Source: a phage | Length of the DNA stretch: 37,944 nucleotides | Reading direction: 5' to 3' (one strand) | Sequence record: PZ247578.1 | Shown: piece by piece, positions 2,383 through 7,110 of the stretch | How the letters are laid out: each line of letters starts with the position of its first letter | How positions within the stretch are numbered: the first letter of the stretch is position 1 | The notes under the pieces: generated by a model | What the model saw: the letters and a program-made list of their open reading frames with translations, nothing else | What the model was told of the DNA's origin: nothing | Database searches by the model: none | Position numbers and translations under genes: made by a program

Positions 2383-2406
2383 ACTTAACTATCACTATAG
2401 GACTCA
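2383..2406 (+). promoter_or_regulatory. Phage RNAP promoter-like sequence (TTAACTATCACTATAGGACTC) upstream of the RNA polymerase gene
   Basis: Matches the core repeated 11 times in the window; followed by an R1-like leader (GACTCAAGGTC, then two copies of TAAGTGAAAGAC). Confidence 0.6.
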
Positions 2407-2474: not shown

Positions 2475-5156
2475 ATGAGCGTCATCTCTATTGACAAACA
2501 CGACTTCTCTGATGTGTCGAACGCCATTGAGCCGTTTAACCTGCTGGCTGACCACTACGGGCAAGACCTTGCAGTCAAACAGCTTCAGCTTGAGCATGAG
2601 GCATATACAGAAGGCGAGCGACGTTTCATCAAGAACCTTGAGCGCCAGACTGAGCGCGGGGAACTGGCAGACAATCAGGTCGCCAAGCCTTTGATGCAGA
2701 CTCTGGTCCCTAAGATTGCGCAAGCCGTCAAGGAGTGGCATGAAGGTCCAGACGGGAAACTGTCAACCTCTCGTCCTAGCGTAGCGTTCACCATGTTGAG
2801 CACTGATGAGAAGGCCGTCAAGGACCGCTCTATGCGCATCTCCTGTGAGTCCGCTGCGGTTATCATACTGAAGGTCATACTCTCAAAGCTGGTAAAGCCT
2901 GAAGGGATACCGATTACACCGATGGCCTCCGCGATAGGTCGCACACTTGAGGACGAAATCCGCTTCGGTCGCATCCGTGACAAAGAGAAAGAGCACTTCA
3001 AGAAGGCGATAGCTGATAACCTGAATAAGAGGGCCGGGGCGTCATACAAGAAAGCCTACATGCAAGCGGTCGAGGCGTCCATGCTGGAGCAAGGCCAACT
3101 GGAAGATGCGTGGGGGACTTGGAGTCCTACAGAGGCTGTCCACGTTGGCATCAAGATGCTCGAGATTGTCATCCAGTCAACACAACTGGTCGAGCTTAAG
3201 CGGTACGGTGCTGGTAATGCAGCGGCTGACGTAGAGATGGTCCACCTGTCAGACTTCTGGGTCAAGAAGATGGCACAACGAGGATTCAGCCTTGCGGGTA
3301 TCGCTCCAGTCTACCAGCCTTGCGTCGTTCCACCTAAGCCGTGGACTGGTGTCGTAGGTGGTGGGTACTGGGCCAAAGGTCGCAGACCGTTACCATTGAT
3401 TCGCTTAGGGTCTAAGTCTGCGGTAGCACGTTATGAAGACGTATACATGCCTGAAGTCTATGACGCTGTGAATATCATCCAGAATACACCTTGGAAAGTG
3501 AACAAGAAGGTATTGGACGTGGTGAACACGGTCGAGAAGCTGAACAACACGCCTATTGAGGACATCCCTCAGATGGAACCGCTGAAGCCTGAGGACTATG
3601 CTGGTGAAACCGAGGAGGAACTAAAGGCATGGAAGAAGGCTGCTGCTGGTATCTATCGCCGCGAGAAGGCCAGACAGTCACGCAGATTATCACTGAGCTT
3701 TATCGTTAACCAAGCAAACAAGTTCTCTCAGTTCAAGGCCATCTGGTTCCCGTACAACATGGATTGGCGAGGTCGTGTCTACGCTGTCCCGATGTTCAAC
3801 CCTCAGGGTAACGACATGCAGAAGGGGCTCCTGACTCTGGCAGTCGGAAAGCCTATTGGTGCTGACGGTTTCAAATGGCTGAAGGTCCACGGTGCAAACT
3901 GTGCGGGTGTCGATAAAGTCACCTTCGATGAGCGCATCAAGTGGGTGGAAGACAACCACGAAAACATCATGGCTGCTGCTAAGGCACCGATGGATAGTAT
4001 TGAGTGGTGGGGCAAGTTAGACTCTCCGTTCTGCTTCCTAGCTTTCTGCTTCGAGTATGCTGGCGTAATGCACCACGGCTTGTCTTACTCCTGCTCGCTG
4101 CCGATAGCGTTCGATGGGTCCTGCTCTGGGATTCAGCACTTCAGCGCTATGCTTCGCGACCACATCGGTGGACATGCAGTAAACCTGACGCCATCCGGTA
4201 AGGTCCAAGACATCTACCGCATCGTGTCTGACCGCATTGAGGAGGAGCTTAAAGTCCTACTGGTTAACGGTACGGACAACGAGATGGTAACTCACGAGGA
4301 CAAGAAAACTGGTGAGATTACCGAGCGTCTCAAGCTGGGGACACGAGAGCTTGCCCGTCAGTGGCTGACCTACGGTATGTCACGAAAGGTCACTAAGCGT
4401 TCGGTCATGACTCTGGCCTACGGGTCGAAAGAGTACGGCTTCGCAGACCAAGTTTACGAGGACATCGTGATGCCAGCGATTGACTCAGGGTCTGGCGCTA
4501 TGTTCACTGAACCAAGCCAAGCGTCTCGCTTCATGGCAAAGATGATTTGGGAAGCTGTGAGTGTGACAGTAGTTGCTGCGGTTGACGCGATGAAGTGGCT
4601 TCAAGGTGCTGCCAAGCTGCTGGCTGCTGAGGTGAAGGACAAGAAGACTGGAGAAATCCTGAAGCCTTGCCTTCCGGTACACTGGGTCACACCTGATGGG
4701 TTCCCGGTCTGGCAGGAGTACCGCAAGAAGGATACTACTCGTCTGAACCTGATGTTCTTAGGGTCATTCAATCTTCAGCCTACCGTCAACAAAGGTACGA
4801 AGAAAGAGCTGGACAAGCACAAGCAGGAGTCAGGCATTAGCCCGAACTTCGTCCACTCACAAGATGGTAGCCACCTCCGCAAGACTGTAGTCCACACTCA
4901 CCGAAAGTATGGCGTGATGTCATTCGCAGTGATTCACGATAGCTTCGGGACCATCCCGGCTGACGCTGAGTATCTGTTCCGTGGCGTCCGTGAGACGATG
5001 GTAGAGACTTACCGCGATAACGATGTGCTGCTTGACTTCTACGAGCAGTTCGAATACCAGCTTCACGAGAGTCAGCGCGACAAGTTGCCTGAGCTTCCGA
5101 AGAAAGGTAAACTGAATATCGAGGACATCTTGTCTTCAGACTTTGCATTCGCTTAA
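2475..5156 (+). CDS. Single-subunit DNA-directed RNA polymerase (T7 gp1 homolog), 893 aa
   Basis: Catalytic motifs DGSCSGIQHFSAM and HDSFGT; length and position as in T7; ends in FAFA like T7 RNAP. Confidence 0.97.
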   Translation: MSVISIDKHDFSDVSNAIEPFNLLADHYGQDLAVKQLQLEHEAYTEGERRFIKNLERQTERGELADNQVAKPLMQTLVPKIAQAVKEWHEGPDGKLSTSRPSVAFTMLSTDEKAVKDRSMRISCESAAVIILKVILSKLVKPEGIPITPMASAIGRTLEDEIRFGRIRDKEKEHFKKAIADNLNKRAGASYKKAYMQAVEASMLEQGQLEDAWGTWSPTEAVHVGIKMLEIVIQSTQLVELKRYGAGNAAADVEMVHLSDFWVKKMAQRGFSLAGIAPVYQPCVVPPKPWTGVVGGGYWAKGRRPLPLIRLGSKSAVARYEDVYMPEVYDAVNIIQNTPWKVNKKVLDVVNTVEKLNNTPIEDIPQMEPLKPEDYAGETEEELKAWKKAAAGIYRREKARQSRRLSLSFIVNQANKFSQFKAIWFPYNMDWRGRVYAVPMFNPQGNDMQKGLLTLAVGKPIGADGFKWLKVHGANCAGVDKVTFDERIKWVEDNHENIMAAAKAPMDSIEWWGKLDSPFCFLAFCFEYAGVMHHGLSYSCSLPIAFDGSCSGIQHFSAMLRDHIGGHAVNLTPSGKVQDIYRIVSDRIEEELKVLLVNGTDNEMVTHEDKKTGEITERLKLGTRELARQWLTYGMSRKVTKRSVMTLAYGSKEYGFADQVYEDIVMPAIDSGSGAMFTEPSQASRFMAKMIWEAVSVTVVAAVDAMKWLQGAAKLLAAEVKDKKTGEILKPCLPVHWVTPDGFPVWQEYRKKDTTRLNLMFLGSFNLQPTVNKGTKKELDKHKQESGISPNFVHSQDGSHLRKTVVHTHRKYGVMSFAVIHDSFGTIPADAEYLFRGVRETMVETYRDNDVLLDFYEQFEYQLHESQRDKLPELPKKGKLNIEDILSSDFAFA

Positions 5157-5170
5157 CAGGAGAGAGAGTT

Positions 5171-5386
5171 ATGAAATTTGCACACAAGCAGACTGGCGTT
5201 AAGGGCGGGACTCAAATCGTGACCGTAACAGAACACAACGGCAAGGGTCTGGTGAAGACCACGGTCATTCCTACCGAAATGTCAAAGCAGCTTAACGTCC
5301 CATTCAAGACCCTCGTCTATCTTGTGGAATCTAGCCACGAGAAATACCTGAAAGACGCAGTGTCCAAGCTGGAGCATACCAAATGA
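5171..5386 (+). CDS. Hypothetical protein (71 aa) between the RNAP gene and the phi1.1-like promoter; no T7 counterpart at this position
   Basis: Strong SD ACAGGAGAGAG; basic and Lys-rich. Confidence 0.6.
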   Translation: MKFAHKQTGVKGGTQIVTVTEHNGKGLVKTTVIPTEMSKQLNVPFKTLVYLVESSHEKYLKDAVSKLEHTK

Positions 5387-5460
5387 CAGACCTACAGTTA
5401 CTGGCCCTGTGGCTGGGAGCACTCGCAGTATTCACTTTAATCCAACGCAGAAGAGGTTAA
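5383..5460 (+). CDS. Small hydrophobic peptide (25 aa, MTDLQLLALWLGALAVFTLIQRRRG)
   Basis: ATG overlaps the upstream stop (AAATGA); single transmembrane-like helix with a basic C-terminus; hand-translated. Confidence 0.3.
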   Translation: MTDLQLLALWLGALAVFTLIQRRRG

Positions 5461-5463
5461 CCC

Positions 5464-5486
5464 TAAACTATCACTATAGGATTAGA
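5464..5486 (+). promoter_or_regulatory. Phage RNAP promoter (TAAACTATCACTATAGGATTAG), phi1.1-like
   Basis: Consensus core; immediately followed by an RNase III-like hairpin. Confidence 0.8.
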
Positions 5487-5530
5487 CTCAAGGTCATGAC
5501 TCAAAGTCGTGGCCTTCATGATTAACCCTA
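5483..5530 (+). ncRNA. RNase III-like processing hairpin (R1.1 position)
   Basis: AGACTCAAGGTCATG...GTGGCCTTCATGATTAAC; same family as 12305 and 34590. Confidence 0.55.
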
Positions 5531-5554
5531 ACTCATTCAATCAGGAGCTACACC

Positions 5555-5734
5555 ATGTATCAGAACACTATCAACTTCGAGCGAATCCGTGAACGTCAGC
5601 AGACTGAAGATTATATTCCGAAGGGACGCAAGCTGAACAAGACCAAGCGTGGTGGAGGTGTCAAGGGTGCTTTCCGTAACGCTGAAGGCAAAGACTCTAT
5701 GGTCAACCAAGAGAAATACTTCGTAGGAGCATAA
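5555..5734 (+). CDS. gp1.1-like small basic protein (59 aa)
   Basis: KGRKLNKTKR matches my recollection of T7 gp1.1; SD CAGGAG; below the ORF-track cutoff, hand-translated. Confidence 0.6.
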   Translation: MYQNTINFERIRERQQTEDYIPKGRKLNKTKRGGGVKGAFRNAEGKDSMVNQEKYFVGA

Positions 5735-5737
5735 GTC

Positions 5738-5998
5738 ATGAACCATTACGAGCTTAAAGATTTCGCAAAGAGTCTTGGACTTGTGGTTGAGCACGACTGG
5801 TATGAGGACCTCCAGCGTAGACTTAAGGTAGAGCGAGTGTCCTTCAGGACAGACTACAGGTACTCACCAAAGAACGGCTACGAGAGAGGGGACCTGATAG
5901 CGAGACTTGAGTTTAATGACTCAATGGGTCCAACAGAATACGCCGATGCCATCGGTCCGGCTTACAACGCACTTAAACAATTTGAACTGTGGAGATAA
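5738..5998 (+). CDS. gp1.2-like protein (possible dGTPase inhibitor homolog), 86 aa
   Basis: Position and size match T7 gp1.2 (85 aa); a shared HDWYED / DDWYD-like motif; weak similarity only. Confidence 0.5.
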   Translation: MNHYELKDFAKSLGLVVEHDWYEDLQRRLKVERVSFRTDYRYSPKNGYERGDLIARLEFNDSMGPTEYADAIGPAYNALKQFELWR

Positions 5999-6002
5999 CA
6001 CA

Positions 6003-7064
6003 ATGACAACTATCAAAACCAACCCGCATCGCGCTGTAGATTACTCTGAGTCAGGCGTTAAGAAAGCGCTTGAAGCTGCTGGGTCGCTGGAAGCCGAAGT
6101 GAAGTATGACGGTGTGCGATTGAATATTCCGGTCTTCCCTGATGGGCGAACTGAATGGTTAAGCCGTGAGTCAAAGACGCTGCCGGCCTTAGACCATTTG
6201 TCAACAGTTGGTCAGGACATCGGAGCATGCCGTGCGTCCGACTGGCGATGGTTCCTGAAGCAAGCAGGACATGAAGTCTCTGGTCTGATGATTGACGGAG
6301 AGGTGATGGTCAAGGGTGTAGACTTCAACACATCCTCAGGTCTTATCCGCACCATGTGGTCTGACCGCAAGAACTACAAGTGGAACATTAACCCTAAGGC
6401 CGATATGGAGACCAAGAAGTCTAACAAGGTCCCATTCCAGATTAGCCCTGAGTTCCTACAAGTGGTCGTCTACGGGGTCATCGACCTTAACATCATCAAC
6501 GACCCGAAAGCAGAAGGTCCTATCCATAGCGTAACCCGCCTGAAGGCCGAAGCTATCGTCCCTCTCCTCCAGAAATACTTCCCTGAAATAAACTGGGTTC
6601 TGTCTGAGTCACACACGGTCTATGACCTTGAGTCGCTCAACTCCCTGTACGAACAGAAGCGTCTGGAAGGACATGAGGGTCTGGTAGTCAAGGACCCACT
6701 TGGTAAGTGGAAGCGTGGTAAGAAGTCAGGCATGTGGAAGATGAAGCCTGAGGAGACCATCGACGGGACCGTGTGTGGCCTCGTGTGGGGGACTCCTGGC
6801 AAGGCTAACGAAGGTAAGGTGATTGGCTTTGAGGTGCTGCTTGAGGATGGAATGGTGGTTAATGCTTGTGGTCTGACTGAAGAACAGAAGGATGAGTTTA
6901 CGGAAGCCTGTAACACTGATACATATATTCTCGGTGGAATCAATCCATACGAAGGCTGGCAGTGTGAAGTCCTATTCATGGAGCGCTTCCCGGATGGCTC
7001 ACTACGTCACCCTAGCTTCAAGTGCTGGCGCGGGACGGAAGATAACCCTACCATTAAGAGCTAA
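6003..7064 (+). CDS. ATP-dependent DNA ligase (gp1.3 homolog), 353 aa
   Basis: N-terminus MTTIKTNPHRAV..EAEVKYDGVR carries the KxDG adenylation motif and resembles T7 ligase; start taken at the internal ATG 6003 rather than the ORF-track start 5907. Confidence 0.92.
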   Translation: MTTIKTNPHRAVDYSESGVKKALEAAGSLEAEVKYDGVRLNIPVFPDGRTEWLSRESKTLPALDHLSTVGQDIGACRASDWRWFLKQAGHEVSGLMIDGEVMVKGVDFNTSSGLIRTMWSDRKNYKWNINPKADMETKKSNKVPFQISPEFLQVVVYGVIDLNIINDPKAEGPIHSVTRLKAEAIVPLLQKYFPEINWVLSESHTVYDLESLNSLYEQKRLEGHEGLVVKDPLGKWKRGKKSGMWKMKPEETIDGTVCGLVWGTPGKANEGKVIGFEVLLEDGMVVNACGLTEEQKDEFTEACNTDTYILGGINPYEGWQCEVLFMERFPDGSLRHPSFKCWRGTEDNPTIKS

Positions 7065-7072
7065 CTAAACGT

Positions 7073-7110
7073 CAACCCAGTGGTCTTCGGACTGCTGGGT
7101 TTCTTTGCTT
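7073..7110 (+). terminator. Intrinsic terminator (T7 TE-like): stem-loop with a UUCG tetraloop plus a U-rich tail
   Basis: AACCCAGTGGTC-TTCG-GACTGCTGGGTT followed by TCTTTGCTTTG; lies just after the ligase gene, as TE does in T7. Confidence 0.75.

What the first reader, a model, noticed from the sequence alone, without database searches (positions are those of the whole stretch)
5171..5460. Two extra ORFs between the RNA polymerase gene and the first downstream phage promoter
In T7 the RNAP gene is followed directly by the phi1.1 promoters. Here a 71-aa basic protein with a strong SD and a coupled 25-aa hydrophobic peptide sit in between, so they are co-transcribed with the RNAP gene.
Basis: inference. 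Interest (0 to 1): 0.5.

Follow-up and report, generated by a model that had tools for sequence, protein, structure and literature searches.

The report
Two conserved small genes after phage RNAP
Both small reading frames after the RNA polymerase gene of this K1F-like (T7-group) phage are real, conserved genes of unknown function: a fast-diverging basic 71-residue protein that is already annotated elsewhere, and a 25-residue membrane-type peptide found in every relative but almost never annotated.

Summary
The window is a Kayfunavirus (K1F-like) genome.

- **ORF-A (5171-5386, 71 aa, pI 9.65)** has an AGGAG Shine-Dalgarno (SD) site 8 nt upstream. It is the hypothetical protein annotated in relatives as K1F/Dev2 "gp1.1" (phrog_8082). 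It is not a T7 gp1.1 homologue.
- **ORF-B (5383-5460, 25 aa, MTDLQLLALWLGALAVFTLIQRRRG)** overlaps the ORF-A stop (ATGA). It ends 1 nt before a perfect phage promoter (5462-5484), which is followed by an R1.1-type RNase III hairpin.
- **Distribution.** ORF-A occurs in 220 and ORF-B in 222 phage records.
- **Constraint.** pN/pS is 0.39 for ORF-A and 0.31 for ORF-B, against more than 1 in the other frames. No column permutation out of 500 reached the ORF-B value.
- **Contrast between the two.** ORF-B is always 25 codons and always coupled in 44 distinct loci. ORF-A is a hypervariable island (43% aa identity) between 96-99% identical flanks.
- **ORF-A structure.** It folds confidently (pLDDT 93.6) into a beta3-alpha-alpha domain with no informative structural match.
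- **Lead for ORF-B.** In about half of the relatives a TM-less T3-gp1.05-like gene is coupled directly after ORF-B. In Klebsiella phages K11 and KP32, gp1.05 carries its own N-terminal TM helix. ORF-B therefore looks like a free-standing membrane anchor.

Function remains untested. Interest is modest.

The parts
2383..2405 (+). Phage-type promoter 94 nt upstream of the RNAP gene. It is context for the finding: it would let the phage RNAP transcribe gene 1, ORF-A and ORF-B.
   Evidence: It matches the promoter motif with 2 mismatches. It sits at the same position, -94 or -95, in 5 relatives.
2475..5156 (+). Gene 1, the T7-type single-subunit RNA polymerase (893 aa).
   Evidence: ORF list. Relatives annotate it as RNA polymerase.
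5158..5162 (+). Shine-Dalgarno site AGGAG for ORF-A, 8 nt before the ATG.
   Evidence: Read from the sequence.
5171..5386 (+). ORF-A: a 71-aa basic soluble protein with a beta3-alpha-alpha fold. It belongs to the family annotated as K1F/Dev2 'gp1.1' (phrog_8082). It is a hypervariable allele island.
5371..5374 (+). GGAG Shine-Dalgarno site for ORF-B, embedded in the 3' end of ORF-A.
   Evidence: A GAGG or GGAG lies 8-10 nt upstream of the ORF-B start in nearly all relatives, even though the C-termini of ORF-A differ.
5383..5460 (+). ORF-B: the 25-aa micropeptide MTDLQLLALWLGALAVFTLIQRRRG. It is predicted to be a single-pass membrane helix with the N-terminus out and the C-terminus in. Its ATG overlaps the ORF-A stop (ATGA).
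5462..5484 (+). First phage promoter downstream of gene 1, the phi1.1 equivalent. It is a perfect match to the consensus, and +1 is at about 5479.
5490..5516 (+). 12-bp hairpin homologous to the R1.1 RNase III sites of T3 and T7. It is the probable 3' processing site of the mRNA carrying gene 1, ORF-A and ORF-B.
   Evidence: The fold has z = -2.8. It aligns with the annotated R1.1 of T3 and with the T7 region.
5555..5734 (+). The true homologue of T7 gene 1.1 (59 aa).
   Evidence: Pfam PF08200 Phage_1_1, E = 1e-10.

Best explanation
**What is shown.** ORF-A and ORF-B are two genuine protein-coding genes. They form the 3' end of the gene-1 transcription unit of a Kayfunavirus. The order is gene 1, ORF-A, ORF-B, then the phi1.1 promoter and the R1.1 RNase III site. 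ORF-A has its own strong SD. ORF-B has an SD embedded in ORF-A and an ATGA stop-start overlap, which implies translational coupling.

**ORF-A.** It is a soluble, basic 8-kDa protein with three beta-strands and two helices. It occurs in several strongly divergent alleles that are swapped between near-identical flanks. That is the pattern expected of a host-interaction (arms-race) accessory protein.

**ORF-B.** It is a 25-residue single-span inner-membrane peptide: a short acidic N-terminus outside, about 17 hydrophobic residues with an invariant Trp, and a QRRRG tail in the cytoplasm.

**What is inferred.** ORF-B works as a free-standing membrane helix that packs against, or anchors, other proteins at the inner membrane. 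It occupies the same place as the N-terminal TM helix of the Przondovirus (K11, KP32) gp1.05 'fusion protein'. In about half of the Kayfunaviruses, the TM-less coiled-coil gp1.05-like protein is coupled directly behind it. In this window gp1.05 is absent, yet ORF-B is still constrained. It must therefore also act on its own, with ORF-A, or on a conserved host membrane component. The biological role (host takeover, anti-defence or exclusion) is not determined.
For: **Identity and anatomy.**

**ORF-A.**
- Family: phrog_8082, E = 3.6e-42; 158 near homologues; 220 phage records.
- A profile search of 1.84 billion cluster representatives returned only 13 proteins at E <= 0.001. Nine are small ORF-A-like proteins or fragments. 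Four are 1,100-1,360-aa proteins hit in several short stretches, which were not examined.
- Coding constraint: pN/pS 0.39, against more than 1.2 off frame.
- AlphaFold2 model: pLDDT 93.6, strands 3-10, 13-22 and 25-34, helices 35-41 and 45-70.
- Hypervariability: against phage ST15, the RNAP 3' end is 96% identical, ORF-A 53% nt and 43% aa, ORF-B 99%, and gene 1.1 90%. ORF-A and ORF-B alleles assort freely.

**ORF-B.**
- Present in 222 phage records.
- In 44 of 44 distinct loci it is 25 codons long with an [A/G]TGA overlap.
- pN/pS is 0.31, and 0.10-0.14 within each allele class. No permutation out of 500 reached the observed value.
- Leu codons vary freely (CTA, CTT, CTG, CTC, TTA), while W10, A15, L19, I20 and R23-R24-G25 are invariant.
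- The relatives with the most divergent ORF-A (L060, L061) keep ORF-B. L060 differs from the window by 11 synonymous and 2 non-synonymous changes.
- Two 25-residue relatives, L099 and L100, keep the TM stretch, the Trp and QRRRG, with different Arg codons.
- No RNA structure or Rfam signal was found.

**gp1.05 link.**
- A PF25755 gene is coupled 4-5 nt after ORF-B in 24 of 46 distinct loci.
- K11 and KP32 gp1.05 consist of a TM helix, a coiled coil and a PF25755 domain.
- ORF-B remains constrained where gp1.05 is absent (pN/pS 0.26-0.34).
Against: - There is no direct evidence of transcription, translation or membrane localisation.
- Homology between ORF-B and the K11/KP32 TM helix cannot be demonstrated from about 22 hydrophobic residues. 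Only the MT[YD] start, the length and the basic end agree.
- The spacing between ORF-B and gp1.05 varies between 4 and 5 nt, so there is no fused product.
- No natural in-frame ORF-B-gp1.05 fusion was seen among the 120 closest gp1.05-like proteins.
- ORF-A and ORF-B alleles recombine freely. This argues against allele-specific contact between the two proteins.
- The pairwise pN/pS values are not phylogenetically independent.
- The near-invariant AGA-AGA-GGT codons may partly reflect a nucleotide-level role, as the SD for the downstream gp1.05 gene.
Confidence: 0.6

Rival explanations
1. ORF-B is a membrane-active effector in its own right, acting like a type I toxin or an exclusion peptide. 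An early-made 25-aa helix would oligomerise in, or perturb, the inner membrane, or block a host membrane protein, to shut off the host, counter a membrane-bound defence, or exclude superinfecting phages. ORF-A would be unrelated or a modulator.
For: - Its size and design (one TM helix plus a charged tail) resemble known small membrane toxins and regulators. This comparison is from general knowledge, not from a test here.
- It is conserved and constrained in genomes that lack gp1.05.
- It is a genus-wide core gene.
- It sits in the early transcription unit.
- The small residues A8, G/A12 and A15 lie on one helix face.
Against: - There is no homology to any known toxin, defence or anti-defence family in Pfam, NCBIfam, PADLOC, PHROGs or the PDB.
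- No toxicity data exist.
- Early membrane depolarisation would seem risky for a phage whose genome entry depends on transcription. This point is an inference.
Confidence: 0.2
2. ORF-B is only a translational relay. Ribosomes finishing ORF-A reinitiate on it so that they are delivered to the next gene (gp1.05 where present), or so that they unfold the RNA. On this view the peptide itself has no function.
For: - Both junctions are coupling junctions: ATGA upstream, and TAA plus 4-5 nt plus ATG downstream in 24 of 46 loci.
- The AGAAGAGGT codons double as the SD for gp1.05.
Against: - Selection acts on the amino-acid sequence: pN/pS 0.1-0.3, invariant W10 and QRRRG, and Arg codons that change while the residue is kept.
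- The length is fixed at 25 codons in 44 of 44 loci.
- The ORF is retained where nothing translatable follows it, as in the window and 20 other loci.
Confidence: 0.07
3. The ORF-B region is conserved as a DNA or RNA element, such as promoter-upstream DNA, a replication origin or an RNA processing signal, and the open frame is incidental.
For: - It lies directly upstream of the phi1.1 promoter. In T3 and T7 the primary origin lies near these promoters (T3 annotation).
- Nucleotide identity is very high among many relatives.
Against: - Variation is concentrated at third codon positions: 18 variable sites there, against 12 at first and 7 at second positions.
- The frame-specific pN/pS pattern points to coding.
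- There is no excess RNA structure (z = +0.8) and no Rfam hit.
- The ORF is kept intact where a 470-nt gp1.05 gene separates it from the promoter.
Confidence: 0.03

Closest known systems
K1F 'gp1.1' / Dev2 'gp1.1' hypothetical protein family (phrog_8082)
   Same: ORF-A is a member: E = 3.6e-42, 91.5% identical to K1F CAJ29348, in the same position directly after gene 1.
   Different: Nothing differs. The family has no known function. Its name is misleading, because it is unrelated to T7 gp1.1.
Przondovirus (Klebsiella phages K11, KP32) gp1.05 'fusion protein': N-terminal TM helix + coiled coil + Phage_T3_1_05 domain (PF25755)
   Same: - It is the first coding element downstream of gene 1.
- It begins with an MTY... 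start followed by a hydrophobic helix of about 20 residues ending in basic residues, like ORF-B.
- In about half of the Kayfunaviruses, ORF-B is followed 4-5 nt later by the coiled-coil plus PF25755 protein. ORF-B plus that protein reproduces the K11 architecture.
   Different: - In K11, KP32 and T3 the gene lies after a phage promoter (phi1.05). Here ORF-B lies before the first promoter.
- ORF-B is a separate polypeptide with its own stop codon.
- The window has no PF25755 gene at all.
- Sequence homology of the TM segments is unprovable.
- The function of gp1.05 is itself unknown.
T7 gene 1 - phi1.1A/B - R1.1 - gene 1.1 arrangement
   Same: Same order of RNAP gene, phage promoter, RNase III site, genes 1.1, 1.2 and 1.3, and an early terminator.
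   Different: - T7 has 25 nt between gene 1 and phi1.1A. This phage has 305 nt there, carrying two genes.
- This phage also has a phage promoter upstream of gene 1, which the T7 record does not list.
Bacterial and phage small single-pass membrane proteins (for example type I toxins, small regulators of membrane proteins, and the Pf3-coat-like design of acidic N-terminus, TM helix and basic C-terminus)
   Same: Size of about 25 aa, one hydrophobic helix, a basic cytoplasmic tail, and omission by gene callers. The resemblance to named examples is from general knowledge only.
   Different: No sequence match to any such family was found. No antisense RNA or toxicity has been shown.
[not shown]
   Different: - Identity is 3-10%.
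- Foldseek against the PDB is not significant.
- ORF-A has no signal peptide, no lipobox and no Cys.
- ORF-A has three strands, and all LptE entries among the hits are longer chains (125-172 residues).
- T3SS chaperones, IclR domains and others score similarly, so this is a generic fold.

Membership tests
phrog_8082 (K1F/Dev2 'gp1.1' hypothetical proteins) | Full-length profile match | tested here: met
   E = 3.6e-42, residues 1-66 against profile positions 1-66 of 66. tblastn gives 91.5% identity to K1F gp1.1.
phrog_8082 (K1F/Dev2 'gp1.1' hypothetical proteins) | Position immediately downstream of the RNAP gene in a Kayfunavirus | tested here: met
   12-16 nt after gene 1 in most relatives. 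A 76-86-aa ORF is inserted in between in a few.
T7 gp1.1 (Pfam PF08200 Phage_1_1) | Profile match above the gathering score | tested here: not met
   ORF-A and ORF-B give no Pfam hit at E <= 1. The neighbouring ORF 5555-5734 matches with 42.3 bits against a cutoff of 21.
T3 gp1.05 (Pfam PF25755 Phage_T3_1_05) | Sequence similarity to T3 gp1.05 or to the profile | tested here: not met
   ORF-A against T3 gp1.05 gives no alignment at E <= 100 and no Pfam hit. The 156-aa gene in relatives does match, but it is absent from the window.
DUF2842 (label given to ORF-B in phage IMM-002) | Pfam profile match | tested here: not met
   No DUF2842 hit at E <= 10 for three ORF-B variants. The only hit is a sub-threshold DUF5325 match, 12-14 bits against a cutoff of 25.
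Single-pass small membrane protein (generic kind) | One hydrophobic stretch long enough to span a bilayer, flanked by charges according to the positive-inside rule | tested here: met
   Residues 4-20 have a mean Kyte-Doolittle hydropathy of 2.24 (1.88 in the second allele). D3 is N-terminal and R22-R24 are C-terminal and near-invariant.
Single-pass small membrane protein (generic kind) | Demonstrated translation and membrane localisation | not testable with these tools
   This needs Ribo-seq, mass spectrometry, tagging and fractionation.
N-terminal membrane anchor of gp1.05-type proteins (K11/KP32 architecture) | A TM helix directly preceding a coiled-coil plus PF25755 module downstream of gene 1 | tested here: inconclusive
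   True for relatives: 24 of 46 loci, as separate coupled ORFs. Not true for the window, which lacks PF25755. Sequence homology of the TM segments cannot be established.
LptE / rare lipoprotein B | Lipoprotein signal peptide with a lipobox Cys, and an LptE profile match | tested here: not met
   The ORF-A sequence has no Cys and no hydrophobic N-terminus, and no Pfam match. There is fold resemblance only.
Type I toxin-like membrane peptides | Toxicity on expression and control by an antisense RNA | not tested
   No family match in Pfam, NCBIfam or PADLOC. No Rfam hit in 4900-5800. The functional features would need experiments.

The most novel reading that the evidence does not exclude
ORF-B is a stand-alone, genus-wide 25-residue membrane-anchor subunit. 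It would be one half of a 'split' membrane protein whose soluble partner can be exchanged or lost: the gp1.05-like coiled-coil protein where present, or the hypervariable ORF-A. In that way the phage would tether alternative early effectors to the inner membrane. The contrast between invariant ORF-B and hypervariable ORF-A would then reflect a fixed membrane or host contact combined with an arms-race surface.
Probability: 0.2. Interest if true: 0.6.

Novelty: new member of a known kind. Interest (0 to 1): 0.4.

Why it matters
ORF-B is a concrete case of a strongly constrained micro-gene, 78 nt long, that standard phage annotation misses. Of the four commonest variants, only two exist as deposited proteins, one record each, and one of those carries a spurious domain name. 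This is in a genus widely isolated for phage therapy (E. coli K1, Salmonella Typhi, Enterobacter and Citrobacter hosts).

It sits on the RNAP transcription unit and is more conserved than its neighbours. It also gives the first architectural clue, membrane anchoring, for the uncharacterised gp1.05 module of T3, K11 and K1F-type phages.

ORF-A, a hypervariable island between near-identical flanks, is a candidate host-interaction determinant.

Neither gene changes how T7-like phages are understood. Both are tractable targets for deletion and tagging experiments.

Tried and rejected
**Family and structure searches that found nothing informative**
- Pfam, NCBIfam and PADLOC gave nothing for either ORF. 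PHROGs gave nothing for ORF-B and placed ORF-A only in its own unknown-function family, phrog_8082.
- PDB sequence searches gave nothing: the ORF-A profile and ORF-B.
- The afdb50 structure library was unavailable.

**Searches for ORF-B elsewhere**
- tblastn with the 25-aa peptide found nothing, probably because of low-complexity masking. The DNA search worked instead.
- The search for homologous proteins refuses queries under 40 aa.
- A degenerate DNA pattern for the ...IQRRRG* end found ORF-B in IMG/VR only on ~40-kb Kayfunavirus-type contigs; the other hits were chance.
- Scans of viral and metagenome contigs with the ORF-A profile added few new types.
- There is no homologue in 5,426 E. 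coli genomes at the DNA level.

**Hypotheses tested and dropped**
- RNA element: no excess folding and no Rfam match.
- Antisense ORFs, two of which are annotated in IMM-002: rejected, because stops occur in all relatives.
- Co-evolution of ORF-A and ORF-B alleles: not seen.
- A natural in-frame fusion of ORF-B with gp1.05: not found among the 120 closest gp1.05-like proteins.
- Helical periodicity of ORF-B conservation: the peak is near 70 degrees rather than 100 degrees, so it is not used as evidence.

**Literature**
- Searches found only genome-annotation tables listing ORF-A as 'gp1.1' with no function.
- The original K1F genome paper is not held in the library.

Full report
**Identity of the window.** A megablast of 4600-6000 finds 274 phage records. 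The best are Kayfunavirus (K1F-like, Autographiviridae, Studiervirinae) at 95-98% identity. The early region has:
- an Ocr-like gene and several unknown small genes, with no gp0.7 kinase;
- gene 1 (RNAP, 2475-5156);
- the two ORFs of the finding;
- a T7 gp1.1 homologue (5555-5734, Pfam PF08200);
- a gene in the 1.2 slot and a ligase;
- a terminator-like hairpin at 7074-7101, where T7 has its early terminator (from general knowledge).

**Observation.**
- AGGAG at 5158-5162 lies 8 nt before the ORF-A ATG. GGAG at 5371-5374 lies 8 nt before the ORF-B ATG. The ORF-A stop and the ORF-B start overlap as ATGA.
- ORF-A is basic, with pI 9.65. Homologues range from 9.7 to 10.3.
- ORF-B reads MTDLQLLALWLGALAVFTLIQRRRG. 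Its hydrophobic core of 17 residues has a mean hydropathy of 2.24.
- One nucleotide after the ORF-B stop starts a perfect copy of the phage promoter CCTAAACTATCACTATAGGA. The window holds ten copies, where none is expected by chance.
- Right after the promoter is a 12-bp hairpin (5490-5516, z = -2.8). It aligns with the annotated R1.1 RNase III site of T3 and with the corresponding T7 sequence.

**Are they genes?** A 25-codon ORF alone is not evidence, since the first 9 kb hold 126 ORFs of at least 20 aa. The comparative data decide it.
- *Distribution.* ORF-A is found by tblastn in 220 phage records, and the 78-nt ORF-B by blastn in 222.
- *Sample.* I assembled about 100 loci from GenBank phages, IMG/VR, metagenomes and Logan assemblies.
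- *Integrity.* In 44 distinct ORF-A/ORF-B pairs, ORF-B is always intact, always 25 codons, and always starts with [A/G]TG overlapping the ORF-A TGA.
- *Constraint on ORF-B.* Nei-Gojobori pN/pS is 0.31 in frame, against 1.2 in both other frames. It is 0.10-0.14 within each of the two main alleles. Shuffling alignment columns gives a null median of 0.87, and none of 500 shuffles reached the observed value.
- *Which residues vary.* Leu positions use up to five synonymous codons. W10, A15, L19, I20 and R23-R24-G25 never change.
- *Most divergent ORF-A homologues.* L060 and L061 are about 30-40% identical to the window ORF-A by eye. Both are still followed by a coupled ORF-B. L060 differs from the window by 11 synonymous and 2 non-synonymous substitutions.
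- *More distant ORF-B versions.* Two have 25 residues: MTQLTLLVIWLAVLAVVIISQRRRG and VTDNQLWLTLWSAFLITFIVFQRRRG. They keep the design and the QRRRG end, encoded by different Arg codons.
- *Constraint on ORF-A.* pN/pS is 0.39 in frame, against 1.26 and 1.64 off frame.
- *Alternatives excluded.* Antisense frames contain stops in every relative. The region shows no excess RNA folding (z = +0.8) and no Rfam match.

Both ORFs are therefore protein-coding and under purifying selection. The values are pairwise and not phylogenetically corrected.

**What is already known.**
- ORF-A belongs to phrog_8082, of unknown function. It is annotated as 'gp1.1' in K1F, EcoDS1 and Dev2 and as 'hypothetical protein' elsewhere. 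The name is misleading, because the T7 gp1.1 homologue is the next gene.
- ORF-B is almost never annotated. Of the four commonest variants, two exist as deposited proteins, one record each: GA2A as 'hypothetical', and IMM-002 as 'DUF2842 domain-containing'. The DUF2842 label is not supported by Pfam.

**ORF-A structure and evolution.**
- With a 25-sequence alignment, AlphaFold2 gives pLDDT 93.6: three antiparallel strands, a short helix and a long C-terminal helix.
- Foldseek against the PDB finds nothing at E < 0.5. BFVD finds only the protein's own family. The fold is generic and gives no function.
- A profile search of 1.84 billion cluster representatives returns 13 proteins at E <= 0.001. 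Nine are small ORF-A-like proteins or fragments. Four are 1,100-1,360-aa proteins matched in several short stretches, which I did not examine.
- ORF-A is a local island of divergence. Between the window and Salmonella phage ST15, the last 600 nt of gene 1 are 96% identical, ORF-A 53% (43% aa), ORF-B 99% and gene 1.1 90%.
- At least four ORF-A allele classes combine freely with the two ORF-B classes. This is the pattern of an accessory protein that is replaced by recombination. Such a pattern is typical of host-interaction genes; that reading is an inference.

**The gp1.05 lead for ORF-B.**
- In 24 of 46 distinct loci, a 155-160-aa gene starts 4-5 nt after the ORF-B stop, with the RRRG codons AGAAGAGG serving as its SD. 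In 21 loci, including the window, the promoter follows directly.
- That gene is a homologue of T3 gene 1.05: BLASTP E = 7e-11, and Pfam PF25755. It consists of a coiled-coil-like N-terminal half plus the PF25755 domain, with no TM segment.
- In Klebsiella phages K11 and KP32, gene 1 is followed by promoter phi1.05 and a 186-aa 'gp1.05 fusion protein'. Its first ~22 residues are a hydrophobic helix, MTYSIVVTILLIITLTLLINTIRN. A coiled-coil-like region and the PF25755 domain follow.
- Concatenated ORF-B plus Kayfunavirus gp1.05-like protein aligns end to end with this architecture.
- ORF-B thus looks like a detached, or not yet fused, membrane anchor of a gp1.05-type module.
- Caveats: homology of two short hydrophobic helices cannot be proven, the 4-or-5-nt spacing rules out a fixed frameshift fusion, and no natural fusion was seen among the 120 closest gp1.05-like proteins.
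- ORF-B remains intact and constrained in genomes without gp1.05 (pN/pS 0.26-0.34; 20 unique sequences, none disrupted). It must therefore have a role that does not depend on gp1.05.

**Mechanism proposed.**
- *Shown:* gene order, signals, coding constraint, predicted fold and hydrophobic design.
- *Inferred, expression:* Host RNAP early, and phage RNAP from the conserved promoter 94 nt upstream of gene 1, produce an RNA that RNase III probably trims at R1.1. This leaves a tricistronic message carrying gene 1, ORF-A and ORF-B. Ribosomes initiate ORF-A at its strong SD. They start ORF-B by reinitiation or at its own SD.
- *Inferred, function:* ORF-B inserts into the inner membrane with its N-terminus out and the RRRG tail inside. 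There it acts through helix packing, as an anchor or partner for phage proteins, or on a conserved host membrane component. ORF-A is a soluble, fast-diverging effector.
- The biological pay-off (host takeover, anti-defence or exclusion) is unknown.
- Rivals are a stand-alone membrane-active effector, a pure translational relay, and a nucleic-acid element. They are ranked separately. The last two are disfavoured by the amino-acid-level constraint.

**Verdict.** ORF-A is an already catalogued hypothetical gene. ORF-B is a systematically overlooked micro-gene that is a core feature of the genus, with a plausible but unproven link to gp1.05 membrane anchoring. This is a new member of a known kind (small phage membrane proteins and early accessory genes). 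It is of moderate interest and readily testable.

Noticed in passing
window 2383-2405: A phage-type promoter (ACTTAACTATCACTATAGGA) lies 94 nt upstream of the RNAP gene, followed by an ACTCAAGGTC... hairpin-like sequence. It sits at the same offset in five relatives. The T7 record lists only an E. coli promoter (C) before gene 1. This would allow the phage RNAP to transcribe its own gene.
   Followed up: partly
L001 2073-2303; L008; L100 2227-2487: Some relatives carry an extra 76-86-aa ORF between the RNAP gene and ORF-A. The stretch between gene 1 and phi1.1 is therefore a hotspot for insertion and deletion of small genes.
   Followed up: no
L003 2364-2834, L004, L006, L013 and others; absent from the window between 5460 and 5462: A T3 gp1.05-like gene (PF25755, 155-160 aa) is present in about half of the Kayfunavirus loci and is cleanly absent in the rest. 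Some records label it 'microtubule-binding protein', which looks spurious.
   Followed up: partly
window 5738-5998 and the same slot in relatives: The gene 1.2 slot holds at least four unrelated-looking alleles: 82-83 aa starting MSERWLFD or MSRRWLFD; 87 aa MGRLYSGNLNAF; 94-95 aa MGMFSRAHSGNL; and 86 aa MNHYELKDF, as in the window. The window's version has no PHROG match and only a sub-threshold Pfam match. Its 3' end overlaps the longest ligase ORF (5907-7064, TTG start).
   Followed up: no
window 5446-5457 (ORF-B codons 22-25): The Arg codons are almost invariably CGC-AGA-AGA followed by GGT. AGA is, from general knowledge, a rare codon in E. coli. Together they form AGAAGAGG, which is the SD for gp1.05 where that gene is present. 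The sequence is kept even where no gene follows.
   Followed up: partly
L025 (IMM-002) 1334-1530: The IMM-002 record annotates two antisense ORFs over the ORF-B region, as 'metal resistance protein' and 'hypothetical protein'. The antisense frames carry stops in all 44 relatives, so these are over-annotations.
   Followed up: yes
L028 1398-1660 (Enterobacter phage 04_vB_Eclo_IJM): In this relative ORF-B is followed after 2 nt by the ATG of gene 1.1, with no promoter and no RNase III hairpin in between. The record also has a fragmented RNAP annotation, so sequence quality is doubtful.
   Followed up: no
one search hit table: Several near-identical Kayfunavirus records are deposited as phages of Staphylococcus, Enterococcus or Acinetobacter. 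These are probably host mislabels or contaminants.
   Followed up: no
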